Shown: positions 8,009 to 52,094, counted from the stretch's first letter. The stretch: 64,000 bases of DNA from Anaerolineales bacterium (GCA_049578465.1 JBAUMB010000055.1:18085-82084); one strand, 5' to 3'. Translations and numbers: made by a program. Notes: a model not told the origin generated them from the letters alone.

Positions 8009-8108
8009 CAAGCGAGCTTTTTCAAAGGTTCGCCAGTTTTTAGGCTTATACCATTAGCAATTCCCATTTTGTGGTTTATAAACCTTTTTGTGATTCTTGT
8101 ATCTGTAA

Positions 8109-24243: not shown

Positions 24244-25146
24244 ATGCAAGTGTATAATCTAAAATTGGATTTCATGGTGGTCGGAGCAGAAAGATGCGGA
24301 ACTACTTGGCTCGCGGATATGCTGCGTCAGCACCGGGATGTTTTTATCCCCGTGCAAAAAGAAATCCATTACTTCAATCGCAAGTTTGTGGATTTTCCCG
24401 ATATCGATAACTATAATTTCGATAAACCCATAGATTGGTATTGGCGGTTTTATGCTGAAGCAGCCGCGGGGCAAAAAAAGGGGGAGGTCTGTCCGTCTTA
24501 CCTCTGGGACATAGCGGCGCCTGAACGCATCCATGCATTCGACCCGGAAATAAAAATCATGGTCATGTTACGGAATCCTATTGAGCGGACTTTTTCAGCC
24601 TATCGATTTTGGATGCAGCGCGGAGTCGTGAGACCTATGCCGTTCCGGGAAGCTGTTAAGCGTTATTCGGATTTGCTTTTACAGCGAAGCATGTATTTTG
24701 ATCAACTAACGCGTTATTACAATTTTTTTCCCAAAGAACAAATCCGAGTGTGGTGTACAGATAGCTCCCCGGCGACTACGATGGTTTCATTTCTTAAGGA
24801 TGCGGAAGATTTTATTGGTGTACAGCAATTTGTGCCGGAAAATGCCTTATCGCGGTCTAATGTTACCAGTGTATCTCGCTTCTGGATTATCAGTTGGCTA
24901 ATGGCTCGATTTCGCCGTTTTCTCCGCCGCTATCGGGCATTCTCCTGGCCAGTCGATCTTTTGCGGAAGGTGAAGATTGCGGATCAGATGGAGTTCATGC
25001 GACGACGGAATATGACTGAGACCCTTCCTACGGAAATCTCGATGATGACAGAGCAGGATCGGATTTGGTTGACAAGTCTTTTGCAAAAAGATATTCAGAA
25101 TTTAGAAGCTTTACTAAAAATCGATCTAAGCGCTTGGAGGTCTTAA
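24244..25146 (+). CDS. sulfotransferase (PAPS-dependent)
   Basis: 5'-PSB-type loop VVGAERCGTTWLADML and 3'-PB-type LRNPIERTFSAYRF. Confidence 0.8.
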   Translation: MQVYNLKLDFMVVGAERCGTTWLADMLRQHRDVFIPVQKEIHYFNRKFVDFPDIDNYNFDKPIDWYWRFYAEAAAGQKKGEVCPSYLWDIAAPERIHAFDPEIKIMVMLRNPIERTFSAYRFWMQRGVVRPMPFREAVKRYSDLLLQRSMYFDQLTRYYNFFPKEQIRVWCTDSSPATTMVSFLKDAEDFIGVQQFVPENALSRSNVTSVSRFWIISWLMARFRRFLRRYRAFSWPVDLLRKVKIADQMEFMRRRNMTETLPTEISMMTEQDRIWLTSLLQKDIQNLEALLKIDLSAWRS

Positions 25147-25174: not shown

Positions 25175-26221
25175 ATGAAATTTCAAACTCTACGTCAGTT
25201 TTTCTCTTCCATGCATATCGGTGATAAATGGAAAGATGCTCTCAAGATTGCTCTAGCTTTGGCGCTCACAGGCTTCATCCTTTCAAAGACCAGTCTTCAT
25301 GACATCATCGCCCTTCGAGATATCATTTCCTGGCCGTGGCTCATTATCAGTCTGGTGGTATTTTTTGCAATGACTATTGTGAAAGCGGCGCAGTATTGGG
25401 CGCTATTCGATAGGCGATTTCCATATCCACAGGTATTAAGGGTCGTGACTTTGCAAAACGCCCTGACGAATCTTATTTCGAATGCGGCTGGGATTGCATC
25501 CTACCTGACCATGTTTCGCGTTGAACAAAAGGTCAAATTGAGATACTCTGGAACGATCTTCATCATCACAAAAGCCGGCGATCTGTTCTGCATGAGCTTC
25601 TTTCTCCTTCTTTCAACCTTGTGGGTGTGGACGCGAATTAATGTTTTGCGTGAACTCGTTATTCTTATCTTGATCGTGAGTTGTCTGGCACTACTTGCTT
25701 TTTGGACGGCTGTTTTTATGCGCCAGAAATTTATTCTTCAGTTGCAAAAAGTCATGCACTGGACGCGGCTCGACCGGGTTTCTATTTTAGAACGCGGCTT
25801 GAACATGCTTCAATCCGTGGCCGAACAGGAACAGCGAACGGTCATTCGCATGTTCCTGCTGGGTCTTCTGCTTTCGATGAGCTATATGTCTCTTACCATG
25901 GCATATAGTTACAGCAGGATTCAGACATTCCATATTCCGCTTGATTTATGGGCAATCATCTTCATTGCTTCATTGCTTCAATTTGTTTCTGTCATTCCCA
26001 TTCAGATTTTCGGAGGCCTTGGAGTTAACGAAGTTACCTTATTATATTTGTACGGCCTTTTTGGTATCGTTCAAGCGGATATTCCCGCAATTTTGGTGGC
26101 CTCGCGTGTATTGTTTTACTTGTTCAACCTTTCTCTTTTGCTTTATATTCCCATCGACACAATCACTGCCAGATTCAAACCCATCAAAAAAGAAGAAGTG
26201 GATAAGGTAAATGAAGCCTGA
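25175..26221 (+). CDS. UPF0104 / 'flippase-like' membrane protein (second copy)
   Basis: 348 aa, about 8 TMs, same overall layout as 14811..15734, again directly upstream of a GT-C-like paralogue. Confidence 0.65.
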   Translation: MKFQTLRQFFSSMHIGDKWKDALKIALALALTGFILSKTSLHDIIALRDIISWPWLIISLVVFFAMTIVKAAQYWALFDRRFPYPQVLRVVTLQNALTNLISNAAGIASYLTMFRVEQKVKLRYSGTIFIITKAGDLFCMSFFLLLSTLWVWTRINVLRELVILILIVSCLALLAFWTAVFMRQKFILQLQKVMHWTRLDRVSILERGLNMLQSVAEQEQRTVIRMFLLGLLLSMSYMSLTMAYSYSRIQTFHIPLDLWAIIFIASLLQFVSVIPIQIFGGLGVNEVTLLYLYGLFGIVQADIPAILVASRVLFYLFNLSLLLYIPIDTITARFKPIKKEEVDKVNEA

Positions 26222-30672: not shown

Positions 30673-32100
30673 TTAAACAAATTTTATCCTGCGTGCCGCG
30701 AACCAAACCATCCGAAGCAAAAGCCAGCCGTGCTTCCAGCGTGAGATGTTGGTTGAACCATATGTCCGCTCGCGATAACGGATGGGCAGGTCAATAATTT
30801 TAAGATTCAACTTTGCGGCGCCGAAGAGCAAATCGAAATCACCGAAAGGATCGAAATCACCGAAATAAGAACGGTGCGCGGCAATCTGTTCGTAATCTTT
30901 GCGCCATAAAACTTTGGTTCCGCATAATGTATCTTTGAGGTGTTGTCCCAACAGCCATGAGAAGGCTGAACTAAAAAATTTATTTCCGATAAAATTCAAA
31001 CCGCGCATCGCTTCTTTTTCCATCGGATAAACCAAGCGCACGCCGTTGATAAATTCTCCGCGGCCCGAACGAAGGGCTTCGTAAAAGCGCGGCAGATCTT
31101 CCGGCGGGACGGTTAGATCGGCATCGAGAACCATCAGAATATCACCGGAAGCTTTTGCGAAACCGAGACGAACCGCATCCGCTTTGCCGATGCCGGTTTG
31201 GCGCAGAAGCAGACTCGAGGTCGAGGGATGAGCCGCCATTTCTTTTTCAATTGCATGATAGGTATCGTCGCGTGAATGTCCTTCGACAAAGATCAATTCG
31301 GTCGCGCGTCCCATCTTCGGAGTCCGTTCAAAGATGGCTTTGATGTTGCCCGACTCGTTTCGCGCCGGAATGATAATTGAAACACTGGGTTCGTCGTTGT
31401 TTGTTTCTGCTCGCGGCTTGGCAATGACGAAATTAGAAAGCGCAAAATCTCGAAACGGCCACAGCCGGACAAGGAATTTATTGGCAAAGCCTCCGAGCGG
31501 AAAGGGCCATAAAATTTCCTGCGATTGTCGAATGACATCAAAGCCTGCCAAGCTGAGCATGTTTGAAACATCCGCGCGTGTAAGCCAATTTTGATCAAGC
31601 ATCGGCACCGCCAGATTTAATCGTTGCGCAACGGTCAGGGGAAATTGCCAAAGACCGCTGTAAAAATTTAGAATCAGGCGAGTGTGAGGCTCACATAATG
31701 ATCGAACTTGTTCAAAGACTTGTTGAACATCCCATAGGTCATTGACCAAATCAGAAAGAATGATTGCATCAAAGGGTTCGCGCAGAGCGGACAGATCATG
31801 AGCATCGGCATTCATGAATTCGAGTCCCGCGTGATGCGCATGAGCGCGCTGAATCATCTCCGTGGAAAAGTCTACGCCCACGCCGCGTGCGGGTTGAAGC
31901 GCTGCAAGCAAATCTCCCGTTCCGCATCCGATCTCCAATACACGTTGACGCGGATTGATCAGGAAACGATAGATTTCTTGAACGCGGCGATGATAGAATT
32001 TTCCCCAACCATCCCACGAATCGCGCTTGCGTGCGATGTGGTCCCAGTGAGCGATGTGACTCTTTTGGTACTGCACAGCAGTTTCATCGTTTGAGTTCAT
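30673..32100 (-). CDS. bifunctional class I SAM methyltransferase / GT2 (DPM1/GtrB-like) glycosyltransferase
   Basis: N-terminal VLEIGCGTGDLL motif I and FDAIILSDLV. C-terminal VSIIIPARNESGNI, VEGHSRDDT, MVLDADLTVPPEDL. Confidence 0.8.
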   Translation of the reverse strand: MNSNDETAVQYQKSHIAHWDHIARKRDSWDGWGKFYHRRVQEIYRFLINPRQRVLEIGCGTGDLLAALQPARGVGVDFSTEMIQRAHAHHAGLEFMNADAHDLSALREPFDAIILSDLVNDLWDVQQVFEQVRSLCEPHTRLILNFYSGLWQFPLTVAQRLNLAVPMLDQNWLTRADVSNMLSLAGFDVIRQSQEILWPFPLGGFANKFLVRLWPFRDFALSNFVIAKPRAETNNDEPSVSIIIPARNESGNIKAIFERTPKMGRATELIFVEGHSRDDTYHAIEKEMAAHPSTSSLLLRQTGIGKADAVRLGFAKASGDILMVLDADLTVPPEDLPRFYEALRSGRGEFINGVRLVYPMEKEAMRGLNFIGNKFFSSAFSWLLGQHLKDTLCGTKVLWRKDYEQIAAHRSYFGDFDPFGDFDLLFGAAKLNLKIIDLPIRYRERTYGSTNISRWKHGWLLLRMVWFAARRIKFV

Positions 32101-36761: not shown

Positions 36762-37610
36762 ATGGCAAAATCAATTGAGCTTGCTCGTCAACCAGAAACA
36801 ATTTATATCAAACCGTCCACCGGCTTGACCGCGCTCAACTTGCGCGACTTGTGGATCTATCGCGAACTGGTTTACTTCATGATCTGGCGCGATATCAAAG
36901 TGCGTTATAAGCAAACCGTGCTGGGCGCGGCATGGGCGATCATTCAGCCGGTGCTGACAATGCTGGTCTTCAACTTCATCTTTGGTAGTATCGCTAAAGT
37001 TCCGACCGATGGCATTCCCTATCCAATCTTTTCGTACACAGCGCTGTTGCCGTGGGGCTTGTTCAGCGCGGCGTTGAACAATGCCAGCCGTTCGCTGACG
37101 ACGAACACGAGCATGGTGACCAAGATTTATTTCCCGCGCCTTGTGCTTCCGCTGGCATCGGTGCTGGGCAACTTGGTGGATTTTGCCATCGCATTCCTAA
37201 TCCTGATCGTGATGATGTTCTATTACAAAGTAACGCCCACGGCCGCCATCTGGACCTTGCCGTTGTTCATCCTCCTTTCGATCATAGCCGCGCTGGGCGT
37301 TTCGTTATGGCTGGCCGCCATCAACGTTCAATATCGCGACGTGAACTACGTCCTGCCGTTCCTGACTCAATTCTGGATGTTCGTTACGCCGGTGGCTTAT
37401 TCATCCAAAGTGATTTCGCCCAAATGGCAGATCGTTTATTCGCTCAACCCGATGGCCGGCGTGGTCAATGGTTTTCGCTGGGCACTGCTCGGCACGCCCA
37501 CCGGTCCCAATTTGCAACTGCTTGTTTCGGTGGGCGTTTCTCTGATTGTCCTCGTGACCGGTTTATTCTACTTCCGCTACATGGAGCGGACGTTTGCGGA
37601 CATGATCTAA
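36762..37610 (+). CDS. wzm: ABC-2 type polysaccharide export permease (Wzm/TagG-like)
   Basis: RDIKVRYKQTVLGAAWAIIQPVLTMLVF N-terminal signature, 6 TMs, 282 aa. Confidence 0.85.
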   Translation: MAKSIELARQPETIYIKPSTGLTALNLRDLWIYRELVYFMIWRDIKVRYKQTVLGAAWAIIQPVLTMLVFNFIFGSIAKVPTDGIPYPIFSYTALLPWGLFSAALNNASRSLTTNTSMVTKIYFPRLVLPLASVLGNLVDFAIAFLILIVMMFYYKVTPTAAIWTLPLFILLSIIAALGVSLWLAAINVQYRDVNYVLPFLTQFWMFVTPVAYSSKVISPKWQIVYSLNPMAGVVNGFRWALLGTPTGPNLQLLVSVGVSLIVLVTGLFYFRYMERTFADMI

Positions 37611-37611
37611 C

Positions 37612-38904
37612 ATGACTACTGCTATTCGAGTTGATCACTTAGGCAAACGGTATCGCATCGGCGCGATGCAGACAAGATTCCATTATGGAATGCTGCGCGA
37701 CGTGCTGATGGATGTGGCGATGACTCCGGTGCACGTGTTTCGATCCATGACCGGCAAGTCCATGCGCGGCGCCGAAAACTTTTCTTACATTTGGGCGCTC
37801 AACGATGTTTCGTTTGAAGTTCAAGAAGGACAAGTGCTGGGCATCATCGGACGCAACGGCGCGGGCAAAAGCACTCTGCTCAAAATTTTAGCGCGCGTCA
37901 CCGAGCCGACGAAGGGCACGGTCTCCGTGCGCGGACGGGTTGGTTCGCTGCTTGAGGTCGGCACCGGCTTTCATCCGGAACTGACCGGCCGTGAAAACAT
38001 CTATCTCAACGGTGCGGTGCTTGGTATGAGACGCGGCGAGACCGAAAGAAAGTTCGACGAGATCGTGGCTTTCTCTGAGGTTGAGCAGTTCATTGATACG
38101 CCGGTCAAACGCTATTCGTCCGGAATGTATCTGCGGCTGGCGTTCGCAGTCGCCGCGCACCTTGAGCCGGAAATCCTGGTTGTGGATGAAGTCCTCGCAG
38201 TAGGCGACGCCGAATTCCAAAAGAAATGTCTCGGCAAGATGGGTGATGTGGCGCAACAAGGACGAACGGTTTTGTTTGTCAGTCACAACATGTCGGCTGT
38301 GCTGCGCCTGACTCAGGAAGCGCTTGTCATTGATAAAGGTCGCTTGATGATGCGCGCTCCTACCGCCGAAGCGGTAGATTATTATCTTTCCGCCGGACAC
38401 GCCGACGCGGGCGAACGTATTTGGGAAGCGGATGAAGTGCCTGAAATGGCTGCGCCGTTCACACCCATTTCTTTAAGGTTGAAAGATATGCGCGGGACTA
38501 TCGTAGATACGCTTCGCTCGACCGAACCGGCTGCCATTGAATTTGAATATCAACTCAGCGCGCCGACCACCGGTTTGCGCGTCGGTTTTTATCTCAGCAC
38601 CATGCGCGGCGATTATGTGTTGACCTCCTTCGATACCGATGAACCCGAAAAATTTGAGAAGTTCAGCGCGCGCAAAGCCGGACGATATGTCAGCCGTTGT
38701 ACCATTCCCGCCGACCTGTTCAACGAAGGCCGTTATTCGTTGGGAGTCAACGCCAGCTCGTTCGGAGTCCGCCGCTATTTTCTCGACGAGAACGCTCTGG
38801 CTTTTAACGTAGATGTTTCCGGCGCTCCCGGAACACATTGGCCCGAACCGCGTGTGGGGCCGATTCGCCCGCGCCTGGATTGGAAAATTGAAAAGTTAGA
38901 TTGA
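37612..38904 (+). CDS. wzt: polysaccharide export ABC ATPase (Wzt/TagH-like) with a C-terminal beta-sandwich extension of about 180 aa (Wzt_C-like)
   Basis: Walker A GRNGAGKST, signature YSSGMYLRLAF, Walker B ILVVDE. Residues from about 250 to 430 form an extra domain. Confidence 0.88.
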   Translation: MTTAIRVDHLGKRYRIGAMQTRFHYGMLRDVLMDVAMTPVHVFRSMTGKSMRGAENFSYIWALNDVSFEVQEGQVLGIIGRNGAGKSTLLKILARVTEPTKGTVSVRGRVGSLLEVGTGFHPELTGRENIYLNGAVLGMRRGETERKFDEIVAFSEVEQFIDTPVKRYSSGMYLRLAFAVAAHLEPEILVVDEVLAVGDAEFQKKCLGKMGDVAQQGRTVLFVSHNMSAVLRLTQEALVIDKGRLMMRAPTAEAVDYYLSAGHADAGERIWEADEVPEMAAPFTPISLRLKDMRGTIVDTLRSTEPAAIEFEYQLSAPTTGLRVGFYLSTMRGDYVLTSFDTDEPEKFEKFSARKAGRYVSRCTIPADLFNEGRYSLGVNASSFGVRRYFLDENALAFNVDVSGAPGTHWPEPRVGPIRPRLDWKIEKLD

Positions 38905-40508
38905 TGGTTACAAAATCAGCGCTGCGTTCGTTGGCTGGCGATTTACCTTTCATTGCCGAACTCGATTGGATGCTTCGACAGAAGAATCGCGCGCACAACG
39001 ATCACTTCTCGCTCGAACGATTAAAGAAATCGTTGCCCGAGGCGGTGAAAACCGCAGAGACATTTGCCGCGTCTGCGAAGCCGGGCAAAAAGATTTTATT
39101 TTTTTCAACCCTGCATTATTGGATCGAACAATCGGCATATATCTCGCTTGTGCTAGCTGGGCTCGGACATCAAGTCACCTTGATGACGTTGCCTTATTCC
39201 GAATGGCATAAGCGCATGGATAACTTTACGCAACGCCAGCGCATTCTGCACACGCGTGACACGTTGAAACCGATTGAGCCGCTGGTCAAACACGTTTCAT
39301 TGCTTGACCTCAAAGATTCGGCATCGTTGCCAGATAAACTTCGCACCGATATTGAACAGATCAGTTTGTGGGATACGCAATATACACTGATGCGCGAAGA
39401 AGTGGATATGAATAACGCATCTGACCGCGCTGTATATGATCTGCGCCTCGAACGAAATTCTTTTGCGGCGTGCGCTGCGCTGGCTTGGATGCAGACGAAC
39501 AAACCGGATGTTGTTCTTGTCCCCAATGGTTTGATCCTTGAAATGGGAATCGTTTTTCGTGTGGCGCGTTATCTTGATATTCCAACCATGACGTTTGAAT
39601 TCAACGATCAGCGCGAGCAGATTTGGTTGGCACAGAATTCATCCATCATGCGGCAGGAAACAGATTATCTTGTTGACGCTCGTTGCAAACTTCCGATGAA
39701 CGATGCAATGTATGAACGCCTGGCCGATTTAGAGAACGCACGACGCGGTGCGCGCGTTTGGGGAAAATCCAAACGCTTGTGGCAATACGTCTCTTCTCAA
39801 GGCGGAGAGGCGACGAAGAAATTGCTTGAACTCGATGATCGTCCGGTTGTCATGTTGGCTGCAAATGTATTGGGCGATAGCTTAACGCTTGGACGCAACA
39901 TCTTCGCTGAGTCAATGACCGAATGGATCAAGCGCACGGTTCAATTTTTTGCAACCCGCTCAGATGTCCAGTTGGTGATTCGAGTTCATCCCGGCGAAAC
40001 GATTGTTCCAAAAGCGAAATCTATGGCGCAAGTTGTGCGCGAGGCTCTGCCGTCGTTGCCGGAATACATTCATGTCATCGCCGCGGCTGATAAAGTCAAC
40101 ACATATGATCTCATCGAGATTGCCGATTTAGGTTTGGCGTATACCACCACGGTCGGACTCGAGACCGCCATGAATGATCGTCCTGTGATCTCGTGCGGCC
40201 AAACGCATTATCGCGGCCGCGGCTTTACGCTCGATCCAAATTCTTGGAAAGAATATTTTACAACGCTGAAAAAAGTTTTATCGGATCTGCCCGCTTATCG
40301 TCTGAACGAGGCGCAGGTAGAATCCGCCTGGAATTATGCATATCGTTTTTTCTTTGAGTACCCGCGCCCGTTCCCGTGGCGCTTGATGAATTTCTGGGAC
40401 GATCTCGCGGTGTGGCCGCTTGGTAAAGTGCTTGGCGCTGAAGGTCAAGCTGAATTTGGCGAGACGTTCAAGTTTTTGGTTGGCGAACCGTTTACGTGGA
40501 AGAACTAA
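38904..40508 (+). CDS. uncharacterised GT-B-like protein, possibly capsule-synthesis (KpsC/KpsS, CMP-sugar transferase)-like
   Basis: C-terminal half QLVIRVHPGE...YDLIEIADLGLAYTTTVGLETAMNDRPVISCGQTHYRGRGFT resembles the HP...G.ETA...P....G...Y..GF pattern of Capsule_synth proteins. TGATG overlap with wzt (the track lists TTG 38901). Confidence 0.4.
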   Translation: MVTKSALRSLAGDLPFIAELDWMLRQKNRAHNDHFSLERLKKSLPEAVKTAETFAASAKPGKKILFFSTLHYWIEQSAYISLVLAGLGHQVTLMTLPYSEWHKRMDNFTQRQRILHTRDTLKPIEPLVKHVSLLDLKDSASLPDKLRTDIEQISLWDTQYTLMREEVDMNNASDRAVYDLRLERNSFAACAALAWMQTNKPDVVLVPNGLILEMGIVFRVARYLDIPTMTFEFNDQREQIWLAQNSSIMRQETDYLVDARCKLPMNDAMYERLADLENARRGARVWGKSKRLWQYVSSQGGEATKKLLELDDRPVVMLAANVLGDSLTLGRNIFAESMTEWIKRTVQFFATRSDVQLVIRVHPGETIVPKAKSMAQVVREALPSLPEYIHVIAAADKVNTYDLIEIADLGLAYTTTVGLETAMNDRPVISCGQTHYRGRGFTLDPNSWKEYFTTLKKVLSDLPAYRLNEAQVESAWNYAYRFFFEYPRPFPWRLMNFWDDLAVWPLGKVLGAEGQAEFGETFKFLVGEPFTWKN

Positions 40509-41344
40509 TGGCAGAAAACACCAAGCAACAAGTCCGGGAATTTTATGATCAGATTGGCTGGTCGCAAGTCGGCGAAGGGTTGTATCAAAACGCTCGCTAC
40601 GAAGATCTGCGATCCGTTTCACACGACTATATTCATCGTTGTCATTTGCGCGTCAATCGTTATATCGCTTCGCGCGGCGACTTTTTGCTGGACGCCGGTT
40701 CCGGTCCGGTTCAATGGCCCGAATATTTGACCTACTCCGAAGGCTATCACTTTCGCGTCTGTCTTGATATATCCATCACGGCATTGAGAGAAGCACGCAC
40801 GCGGCTTGGTGCGAAAGGTTTGTATGTTGTCGCAGATATAGCCAACCTTCCATTCAAGGCTGACGCGTTTGACGGCATTGTTTCGATGCATACGATTCAT
40901 CATTTGCCGCTGAGTGATCATCGCGGCGCGTATCTTGAATTGCATCGCGTTCTCAAATCAAATCGAACAGCGGCAATCGTCAACGGCTGGGATCATCCGC
41001 GTTTGGTGTTAGTCACGCGTCCATTAGTTCGTTTGATTCGATTTATCCGAAGCGGCAGTTTTGGCAAACGAAAAAAGAATTGGCAAGCCGAAGATGAACA
41101 AGAAGGCACCTTCGTTAAAAAATTGACGCCGCGCTGGTTGAAACAAGAGTTGCATGATGTGGATTTTGAAATCTTCGCGTGGCGCAGTCTCAGCACCGTG
41201 TTTCTTAAAACCGTTGTCAATCCACGTTGGGGAGGCAAACCATTTTTGCGTTTTGTGTTCTGGCTCGAAGATCGTTTCCCGCGCTTCTTTGGCGAGAACG
41301 GACAATATCCGTTGATTGTGATTCGTAAATCGGAAGCCAAGTAA
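40508..41344 (+). CDS. class I SAM-dependent methyltransferase
   Basis: FLLDAGSGPVQ motif I, VVADIANLPFKADAFDGIVSMHTIHHL. A TAATG overlap makes ATG 40508 the likely start (the track lists GTG 40496). Confidence 0.8.
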   Translation: MAENTKQQVREFYDQIGWSQVGEGLYQNARYEDLRSVSHDYIHRCHLRVNRYIASRGDFLLDAGSGPVQWPEYLTYSEGYHFRVCLDISITALREARTRLGAKGLYVVADIANLPFKADAFDGIVSMHTIHHLPLSDHRGAYLELHRVLKSNRTAAIVNGWDHPRLVLVTRPLVRLIRFIRSGSFGKRKKNWQAEDEQEGTFVKKLTPRWLKQELHDVDFEIFAWRSLSTVFLKTVVNPRWGGKPFLRFVFWLEDRFPRFFGENGQYPLIVIRKSEAK

Positions 41345-41346
41345 AT

Positions 41347-42213
41347 ATGGAATTGGAACTCGACATTCCTGATAGCGCCAGTCAATGGTACAAACTGAAA
41401 AAGAATCCGCGCCTGTTTTTTTGGTGGATGTTTCATCGAGCTACAACGCCGTTGCGCGTCCTGCCGGACTTTCTCGTGATCGGAGTAATGAAAGGCGGCA
41501 CAACTTCCTTCTTCAATTATCTGGCTCGGCATCCGCGGATCAATCCTCCGTTTCGCAAAGAAATAAAATTCTTTGACATCCACTATCCTGAAGGACTCGG
41601 CTGGTATCGCGCTCACTTTCCAACATGCTTCAAGATGAAGCCGGGGATGGCCACCGGCGAAGCGACGCCGTATTATATTTTTCATCCGACCGCGGCGAAT
41701 CGAATCGCGAAACTTTTGCCAAATGTTAAATTGATCGCGTTGCTTCGTAATCCTGTTGACCGCGCTTATTCGCATTACAATCACATGGTGCGCGTCGGCA
41801 GGGAATCTTTACCTTTTGAAGATGCCATCGGGCATGAAGCGGAGCGATTAAGCGGCGAAGAAGAGAAGATTATCGCCGATCCTCGCTATTCCACCTTTAA
41901 TCATCTGCATTATTCCTATCTCGCGCGCGGAAGATACATTGAACAACTTCAAAAATGGTTCGCGCTTTTTCCGCGTGAGCAAATGCTGATCCTTGCCAGC
42001 GAAGAGATTTATACTTCACCTGCCACCGCGTATCGCAAAGCGACAGAATTTCTTGGATTATCGGACTGGACGCCGAATGATTTCAAAACTTATAAGCAAG
42101 GTGTTTACGAAGAGATGCCTGCATCAACGCGGAATCATTTGATTAAATATTATCGTCCTTATAATCAAAAACTATACGGTTATTTGAAGAGAAATTTCGA
42201 TTGGGACAAGTAA
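41347..42213 (+). CDS. sulfotransferase (PAPS-dependent)
   Basis: FLVIGVMKGGTTSFFNYL (5'-PSB) and LLRNPVDRAYSHYNH (3'-PB). Confidence 0.8.
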   Translation: MELELDIPDSASQWYKLKKNPRLFFWWMFHRATTPLRVLPDFLVIGVMKGGTTSFFNYLARHPRINPPFRKEIKFFDIHYPEGLGWYRAHFPTCFKMKPGMATGEATPYYIFHPTAANRIAKLLPNVKLIALLRNPVDRAYSHYNHMVRVGRESLPFEDAIGHEAERLSGEEEKIIADPRYSTFNHLHYSYLARGRYIEQLQKWFALFPREQMLILASEEIYTSPATAYRKATEFLGLSDWTPNDFKTYKQGVYEEMPASTRNHLIKYYRPYNQKLYGYLKRNFDWDK

Positions 42214-42214
42214 C

Positions 42215-43429
42215 ATGAGTATAAAAACTGCAAATTCCAATCTCAATAAAACCATTTTGATTTTTGTTGTTGTACTAATGATGATGGCGTGCGTTGCCAT
42301 ACCAGCTACAACTCCAGTTTCGATTGCTTCTCCAACTCCATTACCAGCAGCTCAAATACATATCAAGGACGTGACAAGCTGGAAATGGACCGAGATACCT
42401 GTTCCAGTTATTAAACCATTTTCTCAACATCCACAAGTATTGATTGATTCAAAGGGAAGAATTCATTTATTGTGGGACACTTTGGGTGGTTCTGATAATG
42501 CTTTTATATATCATTCTTATTTTGACGCAGGACAATGGACATCACCAAAGCCTATTGCATCAACTTTAGGAACATCATCTATAGTAACAGCGCCACTTGC
42601 AACTCCAGACGGTGCAATTCATGTTCTTTGGTATAACCAATTACAACTTGGCGGCCCTTATCGCTTGATGTACGCAAAATATGATGGCGCAAATTGGAGC
42701 CCAGAAGTAGAACTTTATCGTTCTGATAAAGACCCAAATCTTAGTGGCAGTTTGTTTTCAGACTCTCAATCAGTAGTCCATGCGGTTATACGAGTACCAA
42801 AAGGTTTGGGTTCTGATTTTCTATATTTGACGAATACTACTAATGGTTGGCAAATTCAACAATCTATCTTGCCTCAAGGGTTAAACGATCTGATTATGTG
42901 GAAATATGAATCTGATAGTGATGGGGGTGTTCGACTTTATGGTAGAGATTTAAATGGCCAACTAAACTTTGCTTATTGGAAAAACAATGCTGCCACAACA
43001 CAACAAACAAATATTACTTTAAAAATGTACGATCATGACTTTGGCGACAATCTAGGAAATTATTATATATATCGAATTGGTGATGTGCCAATTCCAGGCG
43101 GAACGACAACAGGTGTTTATTCTCAATGTATTGATACAAACTTAACTTTATGGCCGGAGCAACTTTTGTCCGGAGAGAACAAAGTTGTTACTGCGCCTCA
43201 AATTGCTCAAAGCGCATCTCGTACAGTTATGTCATGGATTACAAGTGATAACCAAGTCCAATTTCTTTTTCCGAAGGGCTGTGGTAAAGCTGATTTATTT
43301 ACATTACCCTTGCCAAAAGTTATCTTTGTACGGCAGTCTCTTTCATTGGCTATAAGTGATTCGCCTAACAAACTTTGTATTCTTAATAGAGCCGGTGAAT
43401 TTGAAATGTATTGTGCAGATATGCAATAA
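42215..43429 (+). CDS. predicted lipoprotein with a repeated BNR/sialidase-like beta-propeller blade pattern
   Basis: Signal peptide plus lipobox-like LMMMAC. At least 3-4 repeats of the form hVLW...hhY..YDG..W(S/T): HLLWDT..IYHSYFDAGQWTSP, HVLWYN..LMYAKYDGANWSPE, FLYLTNTTNGWQIQ. The gene is visibly AT-richer than its flanks. Confidence 0.55.
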   Translation: MSIKTANSNLNKTILIFVVVLMMMACVAIPATTPVSIASPTPLPAAQIHIKDVTSWKWTEIPVPVIKPFSQHPQVLIDSKGRIHLLWDTLGGSDNAFIYHSYFDAGQWTSPKPIASTLGTSSIVTAPLATPDGAIHVLWYNQLQLGGPYRLMYAKYDGANWSPEVELYRSDKDPNLSGSLFSDSQSVVHAVIRVPKGLGSDFLYLTNTTNGWQIQQSILPQGLNDLIMWKYESDSDGGVRLYGRDLNGQLNFAYWKNNAATTQQTNITLKMYDHDFGDNLGNYYIYRIGDVPIPGGTTTGVYSQCIDTNLTLWPEQLLSGENKVVTAPQIAQSASRTVMSWITSDNQVQFLFPKGCGKADLFTLPLPKVIFVRQSLSLAISDSPNKLCILNRAGEFEMYCADMQ

Positions 43430-43453: not shown

Positions 43454-44464
43454 ATGAACTGGAAAAATCAAGTTGTATTAGTCACTGGCGGCACGGGATC
43501 GTTCGGCAAGAAATTCGTCGAGATCATGCTCAAGGATTTCAAGCCGAAGAAGATCATCATCTATAGCCGCGATGAGTTGAAGCAATATGAAATGCAGGCT
43601 TCGGGATTTAATCATCCCTCGATGCGTTATTTCATCGGCGACGTGCGCGACCGCGAGCGTCTTCTGCGCGCCATGCAGGGTGTGGATGTAATTGTCCATG
43701 CCGCGGCATTGAAGCAGGTGCCCGCCTGCGAATATAATCCGATGGAAGCGGTGAAGACTAATATCATGGGCACGAGCAACGTGGTCGAAGCCGCGCTGGA
43801 TGCAGATGTCAAAAAAGTGATGGCACTCAGCACCGATAAAGCTGTCAACCCGGTGAATTTATATGGCGCGACCAAACTCGCGGCGGAGAAGTTGACCGTT
43901 CAAAGTAACGCGTATGCCGCGGGTTCAGCGACCCGCTATTCGTGCGTTCGATACGGAAACGTGGTCGGGAGTCGCGGTTCGGTGGTGCCGGTCTTTCTGA
44001 AGCAACGCGAGTCGGGCAAGGTTACAATCACCGATGATCGCATGACGCGCTTTTGGTTGTCGTTGGAACAAGGCGTCCGATTTGTAATTACTTGCATCGA
44101 ACAAATGGAAGGCGGCGAAGTCTTCGTGCCAAAGATTCCGAGCATGAAAGTGATTGATCTCGCCAAAGCCATCGCGCCGAATGCGGATGTAAATGTGATC
44201 GGCATTCGGCCCGGTGAGAAGTTGCATGAGGTTTTGATCTCTGAAGATGAGGCGCGCAACACTGTTGAGTTGGATCAGATGTTTGTAGTTCAACCGGCGG
44301 AGGCGTTTTGGTTCGGCTACTCGTGGCAAAAGCAAGGAAAATTGCTTTCGGACGGATATCGTTATTCAAGCGACAATAATAAGGAATGGCTGGATGTGAA
44401 CGGCATCAAAAGATTTGTCGAGCCGTTCGAGAAGTTGTTTGCCGCTGGAAAGCTGGAAGGATAG
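43454..44464 (+). CDS. pseB: UDP-N-acetylglucosamine 4,6-dehydratase (inverting), PseB/FlaA1-type
   Basis: VLVTGGTGSFGKKF, IIIYSRDELKQ, YGATKLAAEK, VRYGNVVGSRGSVVP, MTRFW, GIRPGEKLHEVLI, YSSDNNKEWL. Collinear with H. pylori FlaA1 as I remember it. Confidence 0.85.
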   Translation: MNWKNQVVLVTGGTGSFGKKFVEIMLKDFKPKKIIIYSRDELKQYEMQASGFNHPSMRYFIGDVRDRERLLRAMQGVDVIVHAAALKQVPACEYNPMEAVKTNIMGTSNVVEAALDADVKKVMALSTDKAVNPVNLYGATKLAAEKLTVQSNAYAAGSATRYSCVRYGNVVGSRGSVVPVFLKQRESGKVTITDDRMTRFWLSLEQGVRFVITCIEQMEGGEVFVPKIPSMKVIDLAKAIAPNADVNVIGIRPGEKLHEVLISEDEARNTVELDQMFVVQPAEAFWFGYSWQKQGKLLSDGYRYSSDNNKEWLDVNGIKRFVEPFEKLFAAGKLEG

Positions 44465-44467
44465 GAG

Positions 44468-44491
44468 CGATATTCGAGTGATTGAATATCG
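44468..44491. repeat. perfect 8-bp inverted repeat CGATATTC-N8-GAATATCG between pseB and the RmlD-like gene
   Basis: Checked base by base: 44468-44475 is the reverse complement of 44484-44491. Confidence 0.5.
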
Positions 44492-44500
44492 AACATTATC

Positions 44501-45421
44501 ATGCGATTGCTGATCACCGGTTCAAGTGGACTCCTCGGTCTAAATTTGGCTTTGGATGCAACGCGCACGCATCACGTCATTGGCGTGGATCGCAGTACGC
44601 TTGCGTCCGTTCCATTTGAGTTGATCCACGCCGATCTTCTTGATCCGGACGCCGCGTATAGAATCGTCTCCAAATCCAAGCCGGATGCGGTCATCCATTG
44701 CGCGGCACTGGCGGACGTGGATGTCTGCGAATCGAATCCCGATCTTGCGTATCAGATGAATGCAGATTTGCCGGCGCGGCTGGCTGATGCTTGTGCGCGG
44801 CGTCAAGTTCGCCTCATTCACATTTCGACAGATGCAGTTTTCGATGGGCAAAGGGAGGATGTTTACGTCGAGGGCGATGCTCCAAACCCGAAAGGCGTTT
44901 ATGCTAAAACAAAACTAGAGGGCGAACGCGCCGTTTTGCAAGTTAATCCACTAGCGATTGTGGCGCGTGTTAATTTTTATGGCTGGTCATTGAGCGGCAA
45001 GCGAAGTCTCGCCGAGTTCTTTATCAACAACCTCAGCACCGGCAAGAGCGTCAACGGTTTTACCGACGTGCTTTTTTGTCCGATGCTGGTCAATCATCTG
45101 GGCGATGTTTTGCTTGCGATGTTGGATCGCGGCTTGCGCGGTTTATATCATGTGGTGGGTCCGCAGGCGATGAGCAAATATCAGTTCGGAGTTGAGATCG
45201 CGCGCAAGTTTGGATTGAAGGAAAACCTGATTTCGCCGCAGTCCGTGGATAAGTCCAGCCTGACTGCACGCCGTTCCCACAATTTGTGGCTGTCTACTCA
45301 CAAATTGTCCACCGATTTGGATATGACTCTCCCGTCTTTCTCCACCGGCTTGAACGAGTTTAATACACAATACCAGCAGGGTTATCCACAGAAAATCCGC
45401 AGTTATCAACAGAATTCCTAA
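44501..45421 (+). CDS. RmlD-like (dTDP-4-dehydrorhamnose reductase family) sugar 4-ketoreductase
   Basis: MRLLITGSSGLLG, AVIHCAALADVDVCE, YAKTKLEGE, 306 aa. Confidence 0.75.
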   Translation: MRLLITGSSGLLGLNLALDATRTHHVIGVDRSTLASVPFELIHADLLDPDAAYRIVSKSKPDAVIHCAALADVDVCESNPDLAYQMNADLPARLADACARRQVRLIHISTDAVFDGQREDVYVEGDAPNPKGVYAKTKLEGERAVLQVNPLAIVARVNFYGWSLSGKRSLAEFFINNLSTGKSVNGFTDVLFCPMLVNHLGDVLLAMLDRGLRGLYHVVGPQAMSKYQFGVEIARKFGLKENLISPQSVDKSSLTARRSHNLWLSTHKLSTDLDMTLPSFSTGLNEFNTQYQQGYPQKIRSYQQNS

Positions 45422-45430
45422 AGGTGAGAC

Positions 45431-46498
45431 ATGGAAATCAAACTGCATGACCGAACCATTGGATCGAATCATCCGACCTATTTCATCGCTGACATCGCCG
45501 CAAATCATGACGGCGATTTGGAACGTGCCAAACTATTGATCCGCCTCACGCGCCAAGCCGGAGCGGACGCGGCTAAATTCCAGAATTTTGACGCGCCGAA
45601 AATTGTTTCTGATTACGGCTTCTCGCACATGAACGCGCAAGTGAGTCATCAAGCCTCGTGGAAAAATTCGGTGACGGAGGTTTATCGCGCCGCGTCGATT
45701 CCGTTTGAATGGACGATGATTTTAAAAGAAGAGTGCGAGAAAGTCGGCATCCATTATTTTTCATCGCCGTATGATTTCGAAGCCATTGATTTTCTCGATC
45801 CTTATGTTGAAATCTATAAAGCCGGTTCGGGCGAAATTGATTGGATCGAAGCCTTGGAGCGCATGGCGAGCAAAGGCAAACCGTTCTTTGTCGCAACGGG
45901 CGCGTCAACGATCGGCGAAGTTCAGCGCGCGGTTCATGCCATCTTGAAAATCAACAAGCAATTGGTGTTGATGCAATGCAATACCAATTACACTGCCAGC
46001 CCGAAGAATTATGATCATCTGCATGTCAACGTATTGAAGACATATGCGACGATGTTTCCGGATGTAATTCTGGGATTGTCGGATCACACACACGCGGTCG
46101 CGCCGGTTCTCGCGGCGGTGACGCTGGGTGCGCGCGTCATTGAGCGGCACTTCACCGATAGCAATGACCGCGAAGGTCCCGATCATAAATTTGCGATGAA
46201 CCCCGAGAACTGGGCAAAGATGGTGGAAGAGACTCGTTTATTGGAACGCTCATTGGGCGGCGCTGATAAATTCATCGTGGAGAACGAAAAAGATACTGCC
46301 ATCGTTCAGCGTCGTTGTCTGCGTGCGGCGCGTGAAATTAAAGCAGGTGAAATTTTTACGCGCGATATGATCGACGTGCTCCGTCCTGCCACGCCGGGCG
46401 CGATCAAGCCCTATGAAATTCCGGACGTGATCGGTACGAAGGCATTGCATGATTTTAAATTGGGTCAAGAATTGAGATGGACGGATTTGGGCGCGTAA
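45431..46498 (+). CDS. nonulosonic acid synthase (NeuB/PseI/LegI/SpsE family) with a C-terminal SAF domain
   Basis: PTYFIADIAANHDGDLERAKLLI, AKFQNF, LGLSDHT, ERHFT, C-terminal IKAGEIFTRDMIDVLRP. Confidence 0.85.
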   Translation: MEIKLHDRTIGSNHPTYFIADIAANHDGDLERAKLLIRLTRQAGADAAKFQNFDAPKIVSDYGFSHMNAQVSHQASWKNSVTEVYRAASIPFEWTMILKEECEKVGIHYFSSPYDFEAIDFLDPYVEIYKAGSGEIDWIEALERMASKGKPFFVATGASTIGEVQRAVHAILKINKQLVLMQCNTNYTASPKNYDHLHVNVLKTYATMFPDVILGLSDHTHAVAPVLAAVTLGARVIERHFTDSNDREGPDHKFAMNPENWAKMVEETRLLERSLGGADKFIVENEKDTAIVQRRCLRAAREIKAGEIFTRDMIDVLRPATPGAIKPYEIPDVIGTKALHDFKLGQELRWTDLGA

Positions 46499-51278: not shown

Positions 51279-52094
51279 ATGAGCACTCGAGTCGTTGCCG
51301 TCATTCAAGGGCGGATGAGTTCGTCGCGTTTGCCCGGAAAGATTCTGGCCGATATCGCCGGAGGACCGATGTTGCAGCGCGTCTTCATCCGGACCTCGCG
51401 GGCAGCTACCGTTAACGAGACCATCTTTGCCACGACAACCGATTCGACAGACGATCCCGTGGCGGAATATTGCGACTTCAGCGGAATCCCTTTTACGCGC
51501 GGCAGTTTGTATGATGTGCTGGATCGTTACTATCAAACGGCAAAGGAATCAAAAGCCGATATCGTTGTCCGCATCACAGCCGATTGTCCGGTGATTGATC
51601 CGGTGTTGATTGATGATGTTGTTAACACGTTGCTTGATGACAAATTTGATTTTGTCTGCAACCGCTTACCTCCGCCGTGGCATCGCACCTATCCAATCGG
51701 TTTGGATGTCGAAGCTTGTACATTCAAAGTTTTGGCGAAAGCATGGAAAGAAGCCAAAGAACCTCAACACCGTGAACATGCCATGCCGTATTTTTATGAA
51801 GGCGTGGAACTGACTCGTCAAAGCCGAACACTAGAAGCTGGCATTTCTCCGCGCGGATTCAAAGTCGCCTTATTGCATCACACTGCTGATTTTGGCGATT
51901 ATCGCTGGACGGTGGACACGCCCGAAGATTTGGAATTCATGCGGCAGGTTTACAGTCGCTTCGATGGACGCGATGATTTTTCGTGGAAGGAAGTTTTGGA
52001 TTTGGTTCACAACGAACCTAAGTTGATGGAAATCAATGCAGGCGTGAAACATAAAACCTTGAAGGATATTGATAAGAGGGCGTTGAAACGTTAG
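51279..52094 (+). CDS. SpsF-type cytidylyltransferase (acylneuraminate cytidylyltransferase family)
   Basis: VVAVIQGRMSSSRLPGKIL, VVRITADCPVIDP, REHAMPYFYE, YRWTVDTPEDLEFM. Collinear with B. subtilis SpsF as remembered. Confidence 0.8.
   Translation: MSTRVVAVIQGRMSSSRLPGKILADIAGGPMLQRVFIRTSRAATVNETIFATTTDSTDDPVAEYCDFSGIPFTRGSLYDVLDRYYQTAKESKADIVVRITADCPVIDPVLIDDVVNTLLDDKFDFVCNRLPPPWHRTYPIGLDVEACTFKVLAKAWKEAKEPQHREHAMPYFYEGVELTRQSRTLEAGISPRGFKVALLHHTADFGDYRWTVDTPEDLEFMRQVYSRFDGRDDFSWKEVLDLVHNEPKLMEINAGVKHKTLKDIDKRALKR

What the first reader, a model, noticed from the sequence alone, without database searches (positions are those of the whole stretch)
36762..42213. Wzm/Wzt exporter with a Wzt C-terminal binding domain, followed by candidate chain-capping enzymes (KpsC/S-like protein, methyltransferase, sulfotransferase)
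Seen: Wzt (37612..38904) carries about 180 residues beyond the ABC domain. It is coupled (TGATG, TAATG, 2-nt gap) to a 535-aa GT-B-like protein, a SAM methyltransferase and a sulfotransferase.

Established: in ABC-transporter-dependent O-antigen and S-layer-glycan pathways, chain length is set by a non-reducing-end cap. Known caps are methyl, methyl phosphate, or beta-Kdo added by a KpsC/S-related domain. The Wzt C-terminal module recognises that cap.

Inference: the three downstream enzymes are cap candidates. A sulfate or a nonulosonic-acid cap would be a new variant of this mechanism.
Basis: partly seen in the sequence, partly recalled or inferred. Interest (0 to 1): 0.6.

Follow-up and report, generated by a model that had tools for sequence, protein, structure and literature searches.

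The report
Cap-reading glycan exporter with sugar-acid transferase
A soil Anaerolineales bacterium encodes a sugar-chain export pump with a built-in sugar-reading domain, always followed by an enzyme that most likely adds a sialic-acid-like nine-carbon sugar, which suggests a new version of the known "cap the chain, then export it" checkpoint; the methyl- and sulfate-adding genes are optional extras.

Summary
In detail: wzm, wzt, a 534-aa Capsule_synth protein ("caps534"), a methyltransferase and a sulfotransferase are translationally coupled.

- **Wzt tail.** The 176-residue tail folds as a true Wzt carbohydrate-binding domain. All four solved Wzt CBD entries top the fold search (Z 12.6-14.8; next 9.3).
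- **caps534.** Its model is closest to the retaining beta-Kdo transferases KpsC and WbbB (Z 13-16). It keeps the CMP-binding RxHP motif and an NxxxD version of their QxxxD nucleophile motif. The genome shows no Kdo-8-P synthase. Nonulosonic-acid genes lie next door, so the donor is probably a CMP-nonulosonic acid.
- **Distribution.** Of 121 Anaerolineales genomes, 74 have the tail. All 74 also have caps534, usually adjacent.
- **Methyltransferase.** It is present in only 60 of those genomes, although it is fused to caps534 in one genome.
- **Sulfotransferase.** It occurs in part of one genus and is decayed in one genome.

Best reading, unproven: a nonulosonic-acid cap read by Wzt, with methyl and sulfate as optional decoration. 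A sulfate cap is unlikely.

LpxC was not found, so this is a wall or S-layer-type glycan, not an O antigen.

The scan reached the same reading earlier on other Anaerolineales genomes.

The parts
36762..37610 (+). wzm, ABC-2 permease of the glycan exporter (282 aa)
   Evidence: Pfam ABC2_membrane, 76 bits. NCBIfam galactan Wzm/RfbD, weak. Conserved directly upstream of wzt in 14 of 14 fetched loci.
37612..38373 (+). wzt, nucleotide-binding domain (residues 1-254)
   Evidence: ABC_tran, 83 bits. Best solved relatives are A. aeolicus Wzt (6amx, 8dku; E 1e-62), then TarH/TagH.
38374..38904 (+). wzt, C-terminal carbohydrate-binding domain (residues 255-430)
   Evidence: Wzt_C PF14524, 31.5 and 34 bits. 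AF2 model pLDDT 86.9, a beta-sandwich. Top fold matches are the solved Wzt CBDs: 6o14 (Z 14.8), 7k2t (13.6), 5hno (12.8) and 2r5o (12.6); the next match scores 9.3. 40 invariant columns across 42 orthologues.
38904..40508 (+). caps534, a KpsC/WbbB-like modified GT-B enzyme; predicted CMP-nonulosonic-acid transferase and candidate chain capper
   Evidence: Capsule_synth, 34.6 bits. AF2 pLDDT 95.2. VIA: KpsC 6mgb Z 16.0, 6mgd Z 15.0, WbbB 5fa0 Z 13.1. Conserved residues: R360-x-H362-P363 invariant, N321-x-x-x-D325-S326, (S/T)415-T416, E420. Present in every genome that has the Wzt tail.
40508..41344 (+). MT278, class I SAM methyltransferase; frequent but dispensable partner of caps534
   Evidence: Methyltransf_11, 57 bits. 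Fused in frame to caps534 in G019 (L026:8260-10770) and in P0242. Orthologues found in 60 of the 74 genomes that carry the module. Not found in G039 or G028.
41347..42213 (+). sulfoT288, PAPS-type carbohydrate sulfotransferase; lineage-specific accessory gene
   Evidence: Sulfotransfer_1, 60 bits. Heparan-sulfate 3-O-sulfotransferase-like, E 1e-25. Orthologues only in 10 of 24 genomes of the genus; 4 in-frame TGA in G021.
42215..43429 (+). lipo404, foreign-composition insert between the module and the nonulosonic-acid genes; not part of the conserved module
   Evidence: No Pfam or NCBIfam hit. GC 0.379 and GC3 0.25, against 0.46-0.55 for its neighbours. No match to it in any of the 14 fetched loci, most of which run MT278 directly into pseB.
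43454..46498 (+). pseB - RmlD-like reductase - neuB: the nonulosonic-acid synthesis genes that probably supply the caps534 donor
   Evidence: TIGR03589 PseB, 502 bits, over its cut-off. RmlD_sub_bind, 219 bits. NeuB 223 bits plus a SAF domain. They follow MT278 or caps534 directly in 13 of 14 fetched loci.
51279..52094 (+). CMP-sugar synthetase (CTP_transf_3) that would activate the nonulosonic acid
   Evidence: Pfam CTP_transf_3, 93 bits. Conserved in the orthologous loci.

Best explanation
This is a cap-dependent ABC export module for a conserved Anaerolineales cell-surface glycan.

Proposed mechanism:
1. The glycan is built in the cytoplasm on a lipid carrier.
2. caps534 is a KpsC/WbbB-type ulosonic-acid transferase. 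It uses the CMP-activated nonulosonic acid made by the adjacent pseB / reductase / neuB / cytidylyltransferase genes and adds it to the non-reducing end.
3. That residue stops elongation and is bound by the C-terminal carbohydrate-binding domain of Wzt, which licenses export through Wzm/Wzt.
4. MT278 methylates the cap or its neighbour in most lineages.
5. sulfoT288 adds sulfate in a small sub-lineage.
6. Neither modification is the determinant that the conserved Wzt domain reads.

Shown here: the gene order and coupling, the CBD fold, the KpsC/WbbB-like fold and CMP/nucleophile-type motifs of caps534, and the distribution of the genes.

Inferred: the donor sugar, the terminal position of the residue, and its recognition by the CBD.
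For: 1. CBD. The tail model (pLDDT 86.9) matches the solved Wzt CBDs of A. aeolicus, R. terrigena/K. pneumoniae O12 (the Kdo-cap binder) and E. coli O9a. These score Z 14.8-12.6 with rmsd 2.0-3.0; the next unrelated hit scores 9.3. Pfam Wzt_C is above its cut-off.

2. caps534 fold and motifs.
- The model has pLDDT 95.2.
- Best matches are KpsC (Z 16.0 and 15.0) and the WbbB GT99 terminator domain (Z 13.1, rmsd 5.0). Generic GT-B enzymes follow with rmsd 7-9.
- The family profile hits KpsC by sequence at E 3e-4.
- R360-x-H362-P363 is invariant or nearly so. N321-V-x-x-D325-S326 is conserved in 56-58 of 60 sequences. (S/T)415-T416 and E420 are also conserved.
- These correspond to the (K/R)xHP, QxxxD(S) and phosphate/ribose-binding elements described for the retaining Kdo transferases (PMC9587256, PMC12887879).

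3. Donor.
- No Kdo-8-P synthase scores above its cut-off in a 96% complete genome.
- caps534 is followed by pseB, a reductase and neuB in 13 of 14 fetched loci.
- A paralogue with the same motifs sits beside a second neuB/cytidylyltransferase set.
- caps534 gives a weak hit to the BFO_1060 family, the family of the Tannerella Pse/Leg transferases (PMC5420450).
- A KpsC homologue that transfers pseudaminic acid is known: KpsS1, GT118 (cited in PMC12887879).

4. Coupling.
- wzt and caps534 overlap (TGATG).
- In 121 genomes of the order, 74 carry the tail orthologue. Of these, 73 carry caps534, and the 74th has a copy cut by a contig end.
- In the 14 fetched loci the two genes are neighbours.

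5. Precedent. In R. terrigena and K. pneumoniae O12, a beta-Kdo added by WbbB terminates the chain and is bound by the Wzt CBD (PMC9587256, PMC9445017).
Against: - Nothing shows that the residue added by caps534 is terminal.
- The locus has two such transferases and many other glycosyltransferases, any of which could make the terminal epitope.
- Co-occurrence is not specific: the whole locus is inherited together in related genomes, and kin are not independent.
- The Gln of QxxxD is Asn here.
- The equivalence of D325 to the catalytic Asp rests on motif pattern and spacing, not on a superposition.
- The tail profile has no sequence match to solved CBDs, so no ligand-contact residue could be mapped.
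- caps534 has no coiled-coil ruler and no fused polymerase, unlike WbbB. No such fusion was found among longer proteins (weak evidence).
Confidence: 0.45

Rival explanations
1. caps534 adds the nonulosonic acid inside the repeat unit or as a side branch. The Wzt CBD reads some other terminal feature made by another enzyme of the 60-80 kb locus, for example another glycosyltransferase or the methyltransferase-GT2 fusion at 30673-32100.
For: The locus holds many other transferases: several GT4 and GT2 enzymes, a TagF-like protein, and two methyltransferase domains. A second caps534 paralogue with its own neuB module shows that ulosonic acids are used more than once in this locus. Nonulosonic acids are repeat-unit components in many known polysaccharides (own knowledge).
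Against: Among the genes tested, only caps534 is both overlapping with wzt and present in every genome that has the tail. As far as I recall, in the characterised systems the terminator gene lies next to wzt; I did not check this here.
Confidence: 0.3
2. caps534 works like KpsS/KpsC of group 2 capsules. It builds a short ulosonic-acid linker on a lipid acceptor at the reducing end, on which the polymer is then made and exported.
For: The closest structures are KpsC modules (Z 16.0 and 15.0). Pfam places the protein in Capsule_synth. A gene with an LPG_synthase_TM domain lies in the locus at 25175-26221.
Against: The ABC ATPase here carries a Wzt-type CBD. The reviewed literature ties that domain to non-reducing-end caps (PMC9445017). 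Its NBD is closest to Wzt and TagH. No KpsE- or KpsD-like partner was seen among the ORFs scanned.
Confidence: 0.1
3. The cap read by Wzt is the methyl group from MT278, as in the A. aeolicus, Geobacillus or E. coli O8-type systems, or the sulfate from sulfoT288. caps534 only supplies the sugar that carries it.
For: MT278 is coupled to caps534 (TAATG). It is fused to caps534 in G019 and in P0242. Methyl caps are the commonest known kind (PMC9445017). In Tannerella, loss of the Pse transferase also removes one methyl group (PMC6120980).
Against: MT278 orthologues were not found in 14 of 74 genomes that keep the tail and caps534. These include 8 of 9 genomes of family f5, several of them 96-100% complete. 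sulfoT288 is confined to 10 of 24 genomes of one genus and is decayed in G021. The tail keeps the same 40 invariant residues throughout. Its divergence relative to the NBD is 1.3-1.6 times whether or not these genes are present.
Confidence: 0.1

Closest known systems
Raoultella terrigena / Klebsiella pneumoniae O12 system: the WbbB GT99 beta-Kdo terminator with the Wzt carbohydrate-binding domain (PDB 5fa0, 5hno)
   Same: An ABC exporter whose Wzt carries a jelly-roll CBD (Z 12.8 to 5hno). It is paired with a modified GT-B ulosonic-acid transferase (Z 13.1 to 5fa0) that has an HP motif and an xxxD(S) nucleophile-type motif.
   Different: - The transferase here is a stand-alone 534-aa protein with no coiled-coil ruler or fused polymerase domains.
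- It has Asn in place of the motif Gln.
- The likely donor is a CMP-nonulosonic acid, not CMP-Kdo, since no Kdo-8-P synthase was found.
- LpxC was not found in the host genome, so the glycan is not an LPS O antigen.
- The CBD is conserved across a whole order rather than being serotype-specific.
KpsC / KpsS (GT107) and KpsS1 (GT118, a retaining pseudaminic-acid transferase of Acinetobacter baumannii)
   Same: KpsC gives the best structural match (Z 16.0 and 15.0) and the only sequence-profile match in the PDB (E 3e-4). Both belong to Pfam Capsule_synth. KpsS1 shows that this fold can use CMP-Pse (PMC12887879).
   Different: - KpsC and KpsS build a reducing-end Kdo linker for KpsMT, which has no CBD.
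- KpsS1 acts within a Wzy-type capsule unit (own knowledge).
- caps534 has no single-sequence match to any of them.
- No KpsS1 sequence or structure was available for a direct comparison.
Aquifex aeolicus WzmWzt with a 3-O-methyl-mannose/rhamnose cap (PDB 6o14, 8dky, 8dku, 7k2t)
   Same: It has the closest NBD (E 1e-62) and the closest CBD fold (Z 14.8, rmsd 2.0, 128 residues).
   Different: CBD sequence identity is only 18%, and there is no profile match. The A. aeolicus cap is a methyl group on a hexose. Here the methyltransferase is dispensable.
Tannerella forsythia GtfS (Tanf_01245 / BFO_1060 family), a terminal Pse/Leg-derivative transferase of the S-layer O-glycan
   Same: An HP-motif transferase, encoded beside nonulosonic-acid synthesis genes, that puts the sugar at the glycan terminus. 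caps534 gives a weak hit to this NCBIfam family (31.8 bits, E 8e-8). Source: PMC5420450.
   Different: The hit is far below the family cut-off of 200 bits. The Tannerella glycan is flipped by a Wzx-type route and transferred to protein, with no Wzt CBD checkpoint (PMC6120980).

Membership tests
Wzt C-terminal carbohydrate-binding domain (Pfam PF14524) | Scores above the Pfam gathering threshold | tested here: met
   31.5 bits against a cut-off of 30.4; 34 bits in the genome scan. The margin is small.
Wzt C-terminal carbohydrate-binding domain (Pfam PF14524) | Jelly-roll beta-sandwich fold like the solved Wzt CBDs | tested here: met
   The model has pLDDT 86.9. VIA gives Z 14.8 (6o14), 13.6 (7k2t), 12.8 (5hno) and 12.6 (2r5o), with rmsd 2.0-3.0; the next hit scores 9.3. 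Foldseek puts the same entries on top.
Wzt C-terminal carbohydrate-binding domain (Pfam PF14524) | Fused to the C-terminus of a Wzt-type NBD that is encoded next to Wzm | tested here: met
Wzt C-terminal carbohydrate-binding domain (Pfam PF14524) | Dimer formed by exchange of the C-terminal beta-strand | tested here: inconclusive
   The monomer model has a terminal strand (residues 171-175) after a long, less confident loop. That is compatible with strand exchange, but no dimer was modelled.
Wzt C-terminal carbohydrate-binding domain (Pfam PF14524) | Binds a specific non-reducing-end cap | not testable with these tools
   Needs binding assays. No ligand-contact residues could be mapped because the tail profile does not align to solved CBDs by sequence.
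Retaining ulosonic-acid transferases of the KpsC/WbbB kind (GT99/GT107/GT118/GT140; Pfam Capsule_synth PF05159) | Scores above the Pfam Capsule_synth threshold | tested here: met
   34.6 bits against a cut-off of 20, residues 290-448.
Retaining ulosonic-acid transferases of the KpsC/WbbB kind (GT99/GT107/GT118/GT140; Pfam Capsule_synth PF05159) | Modified GT-B architecture shared by KpsC and WbbB | tested here: met
   KpsC 6mgb: Z 16.0, rmsd 4.4, 285 residues. 6mgd: Z 15.0. WbbB 5fa0: Z 13.1, rmsd 5.0, 298 residues. Ordinary GT-B enzymes reach similar Z only at rmsd 7-9.
Retaining ulosonic-acid transferases of the KpsC/WbbB kind (GT99/GT107/GT118/GT140; Pfam Capsule_synth PF05159) | (K/R)xHP CMP-binding motif | tested here: met
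   R360 in 59 of 60 sequences; H362 and P363 in 60 of 60. The motif is defined in PMC12887879.
Retaining ulosonic-acid transferases of the KpsC/WbbB kind (GT99/GT107/GT118/GT140; Pfam Capsule_synth PF05159) | Conserved Asp nucleophile four residues after the carboxylate-binding residue, upstream of HP | tested here: inconclusive
   D325 is Asp in 58 of 60 sequences and is followed by S326. It lies 37 residues before H362, compared with 33 in WbbB (PMC9587256).
Retaining ulosonic-acid transferases of the KpsC/WbbB kind (GT99/GT107/GT118/GT140; Pfam Capsule_synth PF05159) | Gln of the QxxxD motif | tested here: not met
   The position is Asn in 56 of 60 family members (N321) and also in the paralogue caps560. 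This is why I file it as a variant rather than as a member of GT99 or GT107.
Retaining ulosonic-acid transferases of the KpsC/WbbB kind (GT99/GT107/GT118/GT140; Pfam Capsule_synth PF05159) | Glu general base in the N-terminal half | tested here: inconclusive
   Candidates are E213 (51 of 60) and E232 (acidic in 58 of 60; part of a Y/F-E pair at the end of a strand). No superposition was possible.
Retaining ulosonic-acid transferases of the KpsC/WbbB kind (GT99/GT107/GT118/GT140; Pfam Capsule_synth PF05159) | Uses a CMP-ulosonic-acid donor with retention of configuration | not testable with these tools
   Needs an enzyme assay, or adduct trapping with a D325C variant.
WbdD-type terminator (kinase and/or methyltransferase on a coiled-coil ruler) | Kinase domain and a long coiled coil attached to the methyltransferase | tested here: not met
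   MT278 is 278 aa and gives only class I methyltransferase Pfam hits. Its only solved relative is a generic methyltransferase, 3bus (E 5e-5).
PAPS-dependent carbohydrate sulfotransferases (Pfam PF00685) | Sulfotransfer_1 domain with similarity to glycan sulfotransferases | tested here: met
   60 bits against a cut-off of 22. Heparan-sulfate 3-O-sulfotransferases match at E 1e-25 to 1e-20.

The most novel reading that the evidence does not exclude
Much of the order Anaerolineales (no LpxC found in this genome) shares one ancient surface glycan. Its export would be licensed by a terminal nonulosonic acid: a PseB-derived, probably 7-hydroxy, Pse-like sugar that is sometimes O-methylated or sulfated. 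The cap would be added by a new NxxxD-type family of retaining ulosonic-acid transferases and read by an order-wide conserved Wzt domain. This would be the first nonulosonic-acid cap and the first such checkpoint described in Chloroflexota.
Probability: 0.35. Interest if true: 0.7.

Novelty: new variant of a known kind. Interest (0 to 1): 0.5.

Why it matters
Cap-dependent export by Wzm/Wzt is known for methyl, methyl-phosphate and beta-Kdo caps. Nearly all examples are variable O antigens of Gram-negative bacteria.

If this reading holds, three things follow:
- The principle extends to a nine-carbon sialic-acid-like cap.
- It extends to a phylum without lipopolysaccharide.
- It extends to a conserved rather than serotype-variable glycan, which suggests the glycan is a core part of the Anaerolineales cell envelope.

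caps534 would also add an NxxxD branch to the small group of double-displacement ulosonic-acid transferases. It comes with a directly testable nucleophile, D325.

Anaerolineales are abundant in soils, peat, sludge and mats, so a conserved acidic, sometimes sulfated, surface glycan could matter for their matrix chemistry.

Tried and rejected
**Searches that gave little or nothing**
- A single-sequence PDB search with caps534 gave nothing. Only the family profile reached KpsC.
- The tail profile found no solved CBD by sequence, so cap-contact residues of 8dky or 5hno could not be mapped.
- Model coordinates are not exposed to the script box, so there was no superposition of D325/N321/H362 on WbbB or KpsC.
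- A search for longer fused forms of caps534 (WbbB-like ruler or polymerase fusions) found none. This is weak evidence.
- A 781-aa open frame in G306 turned out to be an overlapping spurious frame, not a fusion.

- For P0352 it returned one Desulfobacterales locus. There, a 25%-identical homologue lies near a cytidylyltransferase, but no Wzt was identified among the ORFs scanned.

**Other**
- In a phylum sample of 201 genomes, orthologues were found only inside the order. No phylogenetically independent test of the Wzt-caps534 pairing was obtained.
- No RNA holder was listed for the stretch.
- The O-antigen reading was rejected because LpxC was not found.
- CMP-Kdo as donor was rejected as unlikely because no Kdo-8-P synthase scored over its cut-off.

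Full report
**1. Observation**

They are TAAcATG (wzm/wzt), TGATG (wzt/next gene), TAATG, a 2-nt gap, and TAAcATG into the following gene. The overlaps imply that the second-codon ATG at 38904 and the ATG at 40508 are the real starts. That gives proteins of 534 and 278 aa.

Pfam gives these hits:
- ABC2_membrane for Wzm.
- ABC_tran (residues 63-194) plus Wzt_C (residues 287-404; 31.5 bits, cut-off 30.4) for Wzt.
- Capsule_synth (34.6 bits, cut-off 20) for the 534-aa protein, which I call caps534.
- Methyltransf_11 for the 278-aa protein (MT278).
- Sulfotransfer_1 for the 288-aa protein (sulfoT288).

The genome holds only one Wzt_C match.

Close homologues are labelled Anaerolineales, Anaerolineae or Chloroflexi MAGs. 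DNA runs that hold the stretch are soil and peat metagenomes.

**2. The Wzt tail is a real carbohydrate-binding domain**

I aligned 42 orthologous tails and folded the alignment. The model has pLDDT 86.9 and is a beta-sandwich with a detached C-terminal strand.

- In the search of 48,161 chain representatives, the four solved Wzt CBD entries rank first. These are A. aeolicus 6o14 (Z 14.8, rmsd 2.0), 7k2t (13.6), the Kdo-cap binder 5hno (12.8) and E. coli O9a 2r5o (12.6). The next hit scores 9.3.
- Foldseek agrees.
- At sequence level the tail is its own family. Its profile matches no solved CBD.
- The tail is unusually conserved. It has 40 invariant columns, many of them Arg, Trp or Tyr, across families of the order.
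- It diverges only 1.3-1.6 times as fast as the NBD.

**3. caps534 is a KpsC/WbbB-like ulosonic-acid transferase**

The protein has thousands of homologues. A 60-sequence alignment gave a model with pLDDT 95.2.

- The best structural matches are the two Thermosulfurimonas KpsC modules (Z 16.0 and 15.0, rmsd 4.4-4.6) and the WbbB GT99 terminator domain (Z 13.1, rmsd 5.0). Ordinary GT-B enzymes reach similar Z only at rmsd 7-9.
- The family profile finds KpsC in the PDB at E 3e-4.
- Conserved residues are R360-x-H362-P363-x-E365 (invariant or nearly so), N321-V-x-x-D325-S326 (56-58 of 60), (S/T)415-T416 and E420.
- The literature defines the retaining Kdo transferases by a (K/R)xHP CMP motif, a QxxxD motif and a Glu general base. 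In the QxxxD motif, the Asp is the covalent nucleophile (followed by Ser in WbbB) and the Gln holds the sugar carboxylate (PMC9587256, PMC12887879).
- caps534 has the first element. It has an Asn-for-Gln version of the second. It has two candidate glutamates, E213 and E232. I could not superpose structures, so the Asp and Glu equivalences are inferred.

**4. The donor is probably a nonulosonic acid**

- The 96% complete genome has no Kdo-8-P synthase above its cut-off.
- In 13 of 14 orthologous loci fetched from other genomes of the order, caps534 (with or without MT278) runs straight into pseB, an RmlD-like reductase, neuB and a GT4. A CTP_transf_3 cytidylyltransferase lies a few genes on.
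- Just past the window end, on the same contig, sits a second set: an SDR, a cytidylyltransferase-HAD fusion, a second NeuB, a sulfotransferase, a 560-aa caps534 paralogue, another sulfotransferase and a GT2.
- The paralogue keeps NVxxD, RxHPxE and STxGLE. Each ulosonic-acid module therefore has its own transferase of this type.
- caps534 also gives a weak hit to the BFO_1060 family, the family of the Tannerella Pse/Leg transferases (PMC5420450).
- A KpsC homologue that transfers pseudaminic acid (KpsS1, GT118) is on record (PMC12887879).

**5. Which of the three enzymes travels with the tail**

| Gene | Distribution |
|---|---|
| Wzt tail orthologue | 74 of 121 Anaerolineales genomes (E 1e-45 or better) |
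| caps534 | 73 of those 74; the 74th (G031) has a copy cut by a contig end |
| MT278 | 60 of the 74; not found in 8 of 9 genomes of family f5, in genus g25, or in G039 and G028 |
| sulfoT288 | 10 of 24 genomes of the window's own genus; four in-frame TGA in G021 |

- Families of the order that lack the tail also lack caps534.
- In the 14 fetched loci the two genes are neighbours, with gaps of a few to about 800 nt.
- Several of the genomes without MT278 are 96-100% complete.
- MT278 is nevertheless fused in frame to caps534 in G019 and in an 893-aa representative, P0242.
- In G021, where sulfoT288 is decayed, caps534 is 92% identical to the window's copy.
- sulfoT288 and the following gene, lipo404 (GC 0.379, GC3 0.25), sit at the point where most fetched relatives run MT278 directly into pseB.
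- The tail keeps its invariant residues, and its tail/NBD divergence ratio stays at 1.3-1.6, whether or not MT278 or sulfoT288 is present.

**6. Reading**

The best-supported model is the R. terrigena/K. pneumoniae O12 logic with a different sugar. caps534 adds a CMP-activated nonulosonic acid to the non-reducing end. The Wzt CBD binds it, and Wzm/Wzt export the lipid-linked chain. Methylation is a common decoration and sulfation a rare one.

LpxC was not found, and three LytR-CpsA-Psr ligases are present. The product is therefore a wall-linked, S-layer or other surface glycan, not an LPS O antigen.

What is not shown: that the sugar is terminal, that the CBD binds it, and what the sugar is. 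Rivals are an internal or side-chain nonulosonic acid with another cap (about 0.3), a KpsS/C-style reducing-end linker (about 0.1), and a methyl or sulfate cap (about 0.1 together). I put the main model at about 0.45.

**7. Novelty and context**

No paper I could find describes a nonulosonic-acid cap read by Wzt, or this system in Chloroflexota. Relative to the literature it is a new variant of a known kind.

Within this scan it is not new. Earlier follow-ups on other Anaerolineales genomes (e1-2303341, e1-3164808) reached the same reading, including the occasional nature of the sulfotransferase. Those are unchecked AI notes. My tests were run independently and agree.

Points added here:
- the NxxxD variant of the nucleophile motif
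- the second paralogue and module beside two more sulfotransferases
- no Kdo-8-P synthase over its cut-off and no LpxC match
- the family-level loss of MT278
- the constant tail/NBD divergence ratio
- the decayed sulfotransferase in G021

Noticed in passing
L059:2180-9484 (G000 contig C55:82179-89483, just past the window end): A second ulosonic-acid module on the same contig: an SDR, a cytidylyltransferase-HAD phosphatase fusion, a 298-aa NeuB without a SAF domain, a sulfotransferase, a 560-aa paralogue of caps534 that keeps the same NVxxD / RxHPxE / STxGLE motifs, another sulfotransferase and a GT2. The cytidylyltransferase-phosphatase fusion suggests a Kdn- or Kdo-like 9-phosphate route.
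   Followed up: partly
window 42215-43429: The 404-aa gene with no family hit has GC 0.379 and GC3 0.25, against 0.46-0.55 for its neighbours. No match to it was found in any of the 14 fetched loci, most of which run the methyltransferase directly into pseB. It looks like a recently inserted foreign gene.
   Followed up: partly
G021:C17:210320-211172 (orthologous position in a genome of the same genus): The sulfoT288 orthologue carries four in-frame TGA codons (and one TAG in a second frame) and is only 59% identical. The adjacent caps534 is 92% identical. This looks like an accessory gene in decay.
   Followed up: partly
L026:8260-10770 (G019) and protein P0242: caps534 and the methyltransferase are one in-frame 836-aa (893-aa in P0242) protein with both Pfam domains. 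This natural fusion ties the two activities together.
   Followed up: yes
window 24244-25146, 41347-42213, 56681-57709; L059:5143-5985 and 7667-8524: At least five carbohydrate-type sulfotransferase genes are spread over this one glycan locus. Two of them flank the second caps534 paralogue, which may mean that sulfate goes on or near the ulosonic acids.
   Followed up: no
L060:10001-13802 (Desulfobacterales MAG, CAXXKH010000035.1): A 25%-identical homologue of caps534 with no Pfam hit lies next to a radical SAM/SPASM protein, a cytidylyltransferase, split transketolase genes and a GT-methyltransferase fusion. This is another CMP-sugar context for the family, outside Chloroflexota.
   Followed up: partly
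whole genome G000: No LpxC match and no Kdo-8-P synthase over its cut-off were found in a 96% complete genome. Three LytR-CpsA-Psr ligases and three Wzy_C-domain proteins are present elsewhere. This is consistent with an envelope that lacks lipopolysaccharide.
   Followed up: partly
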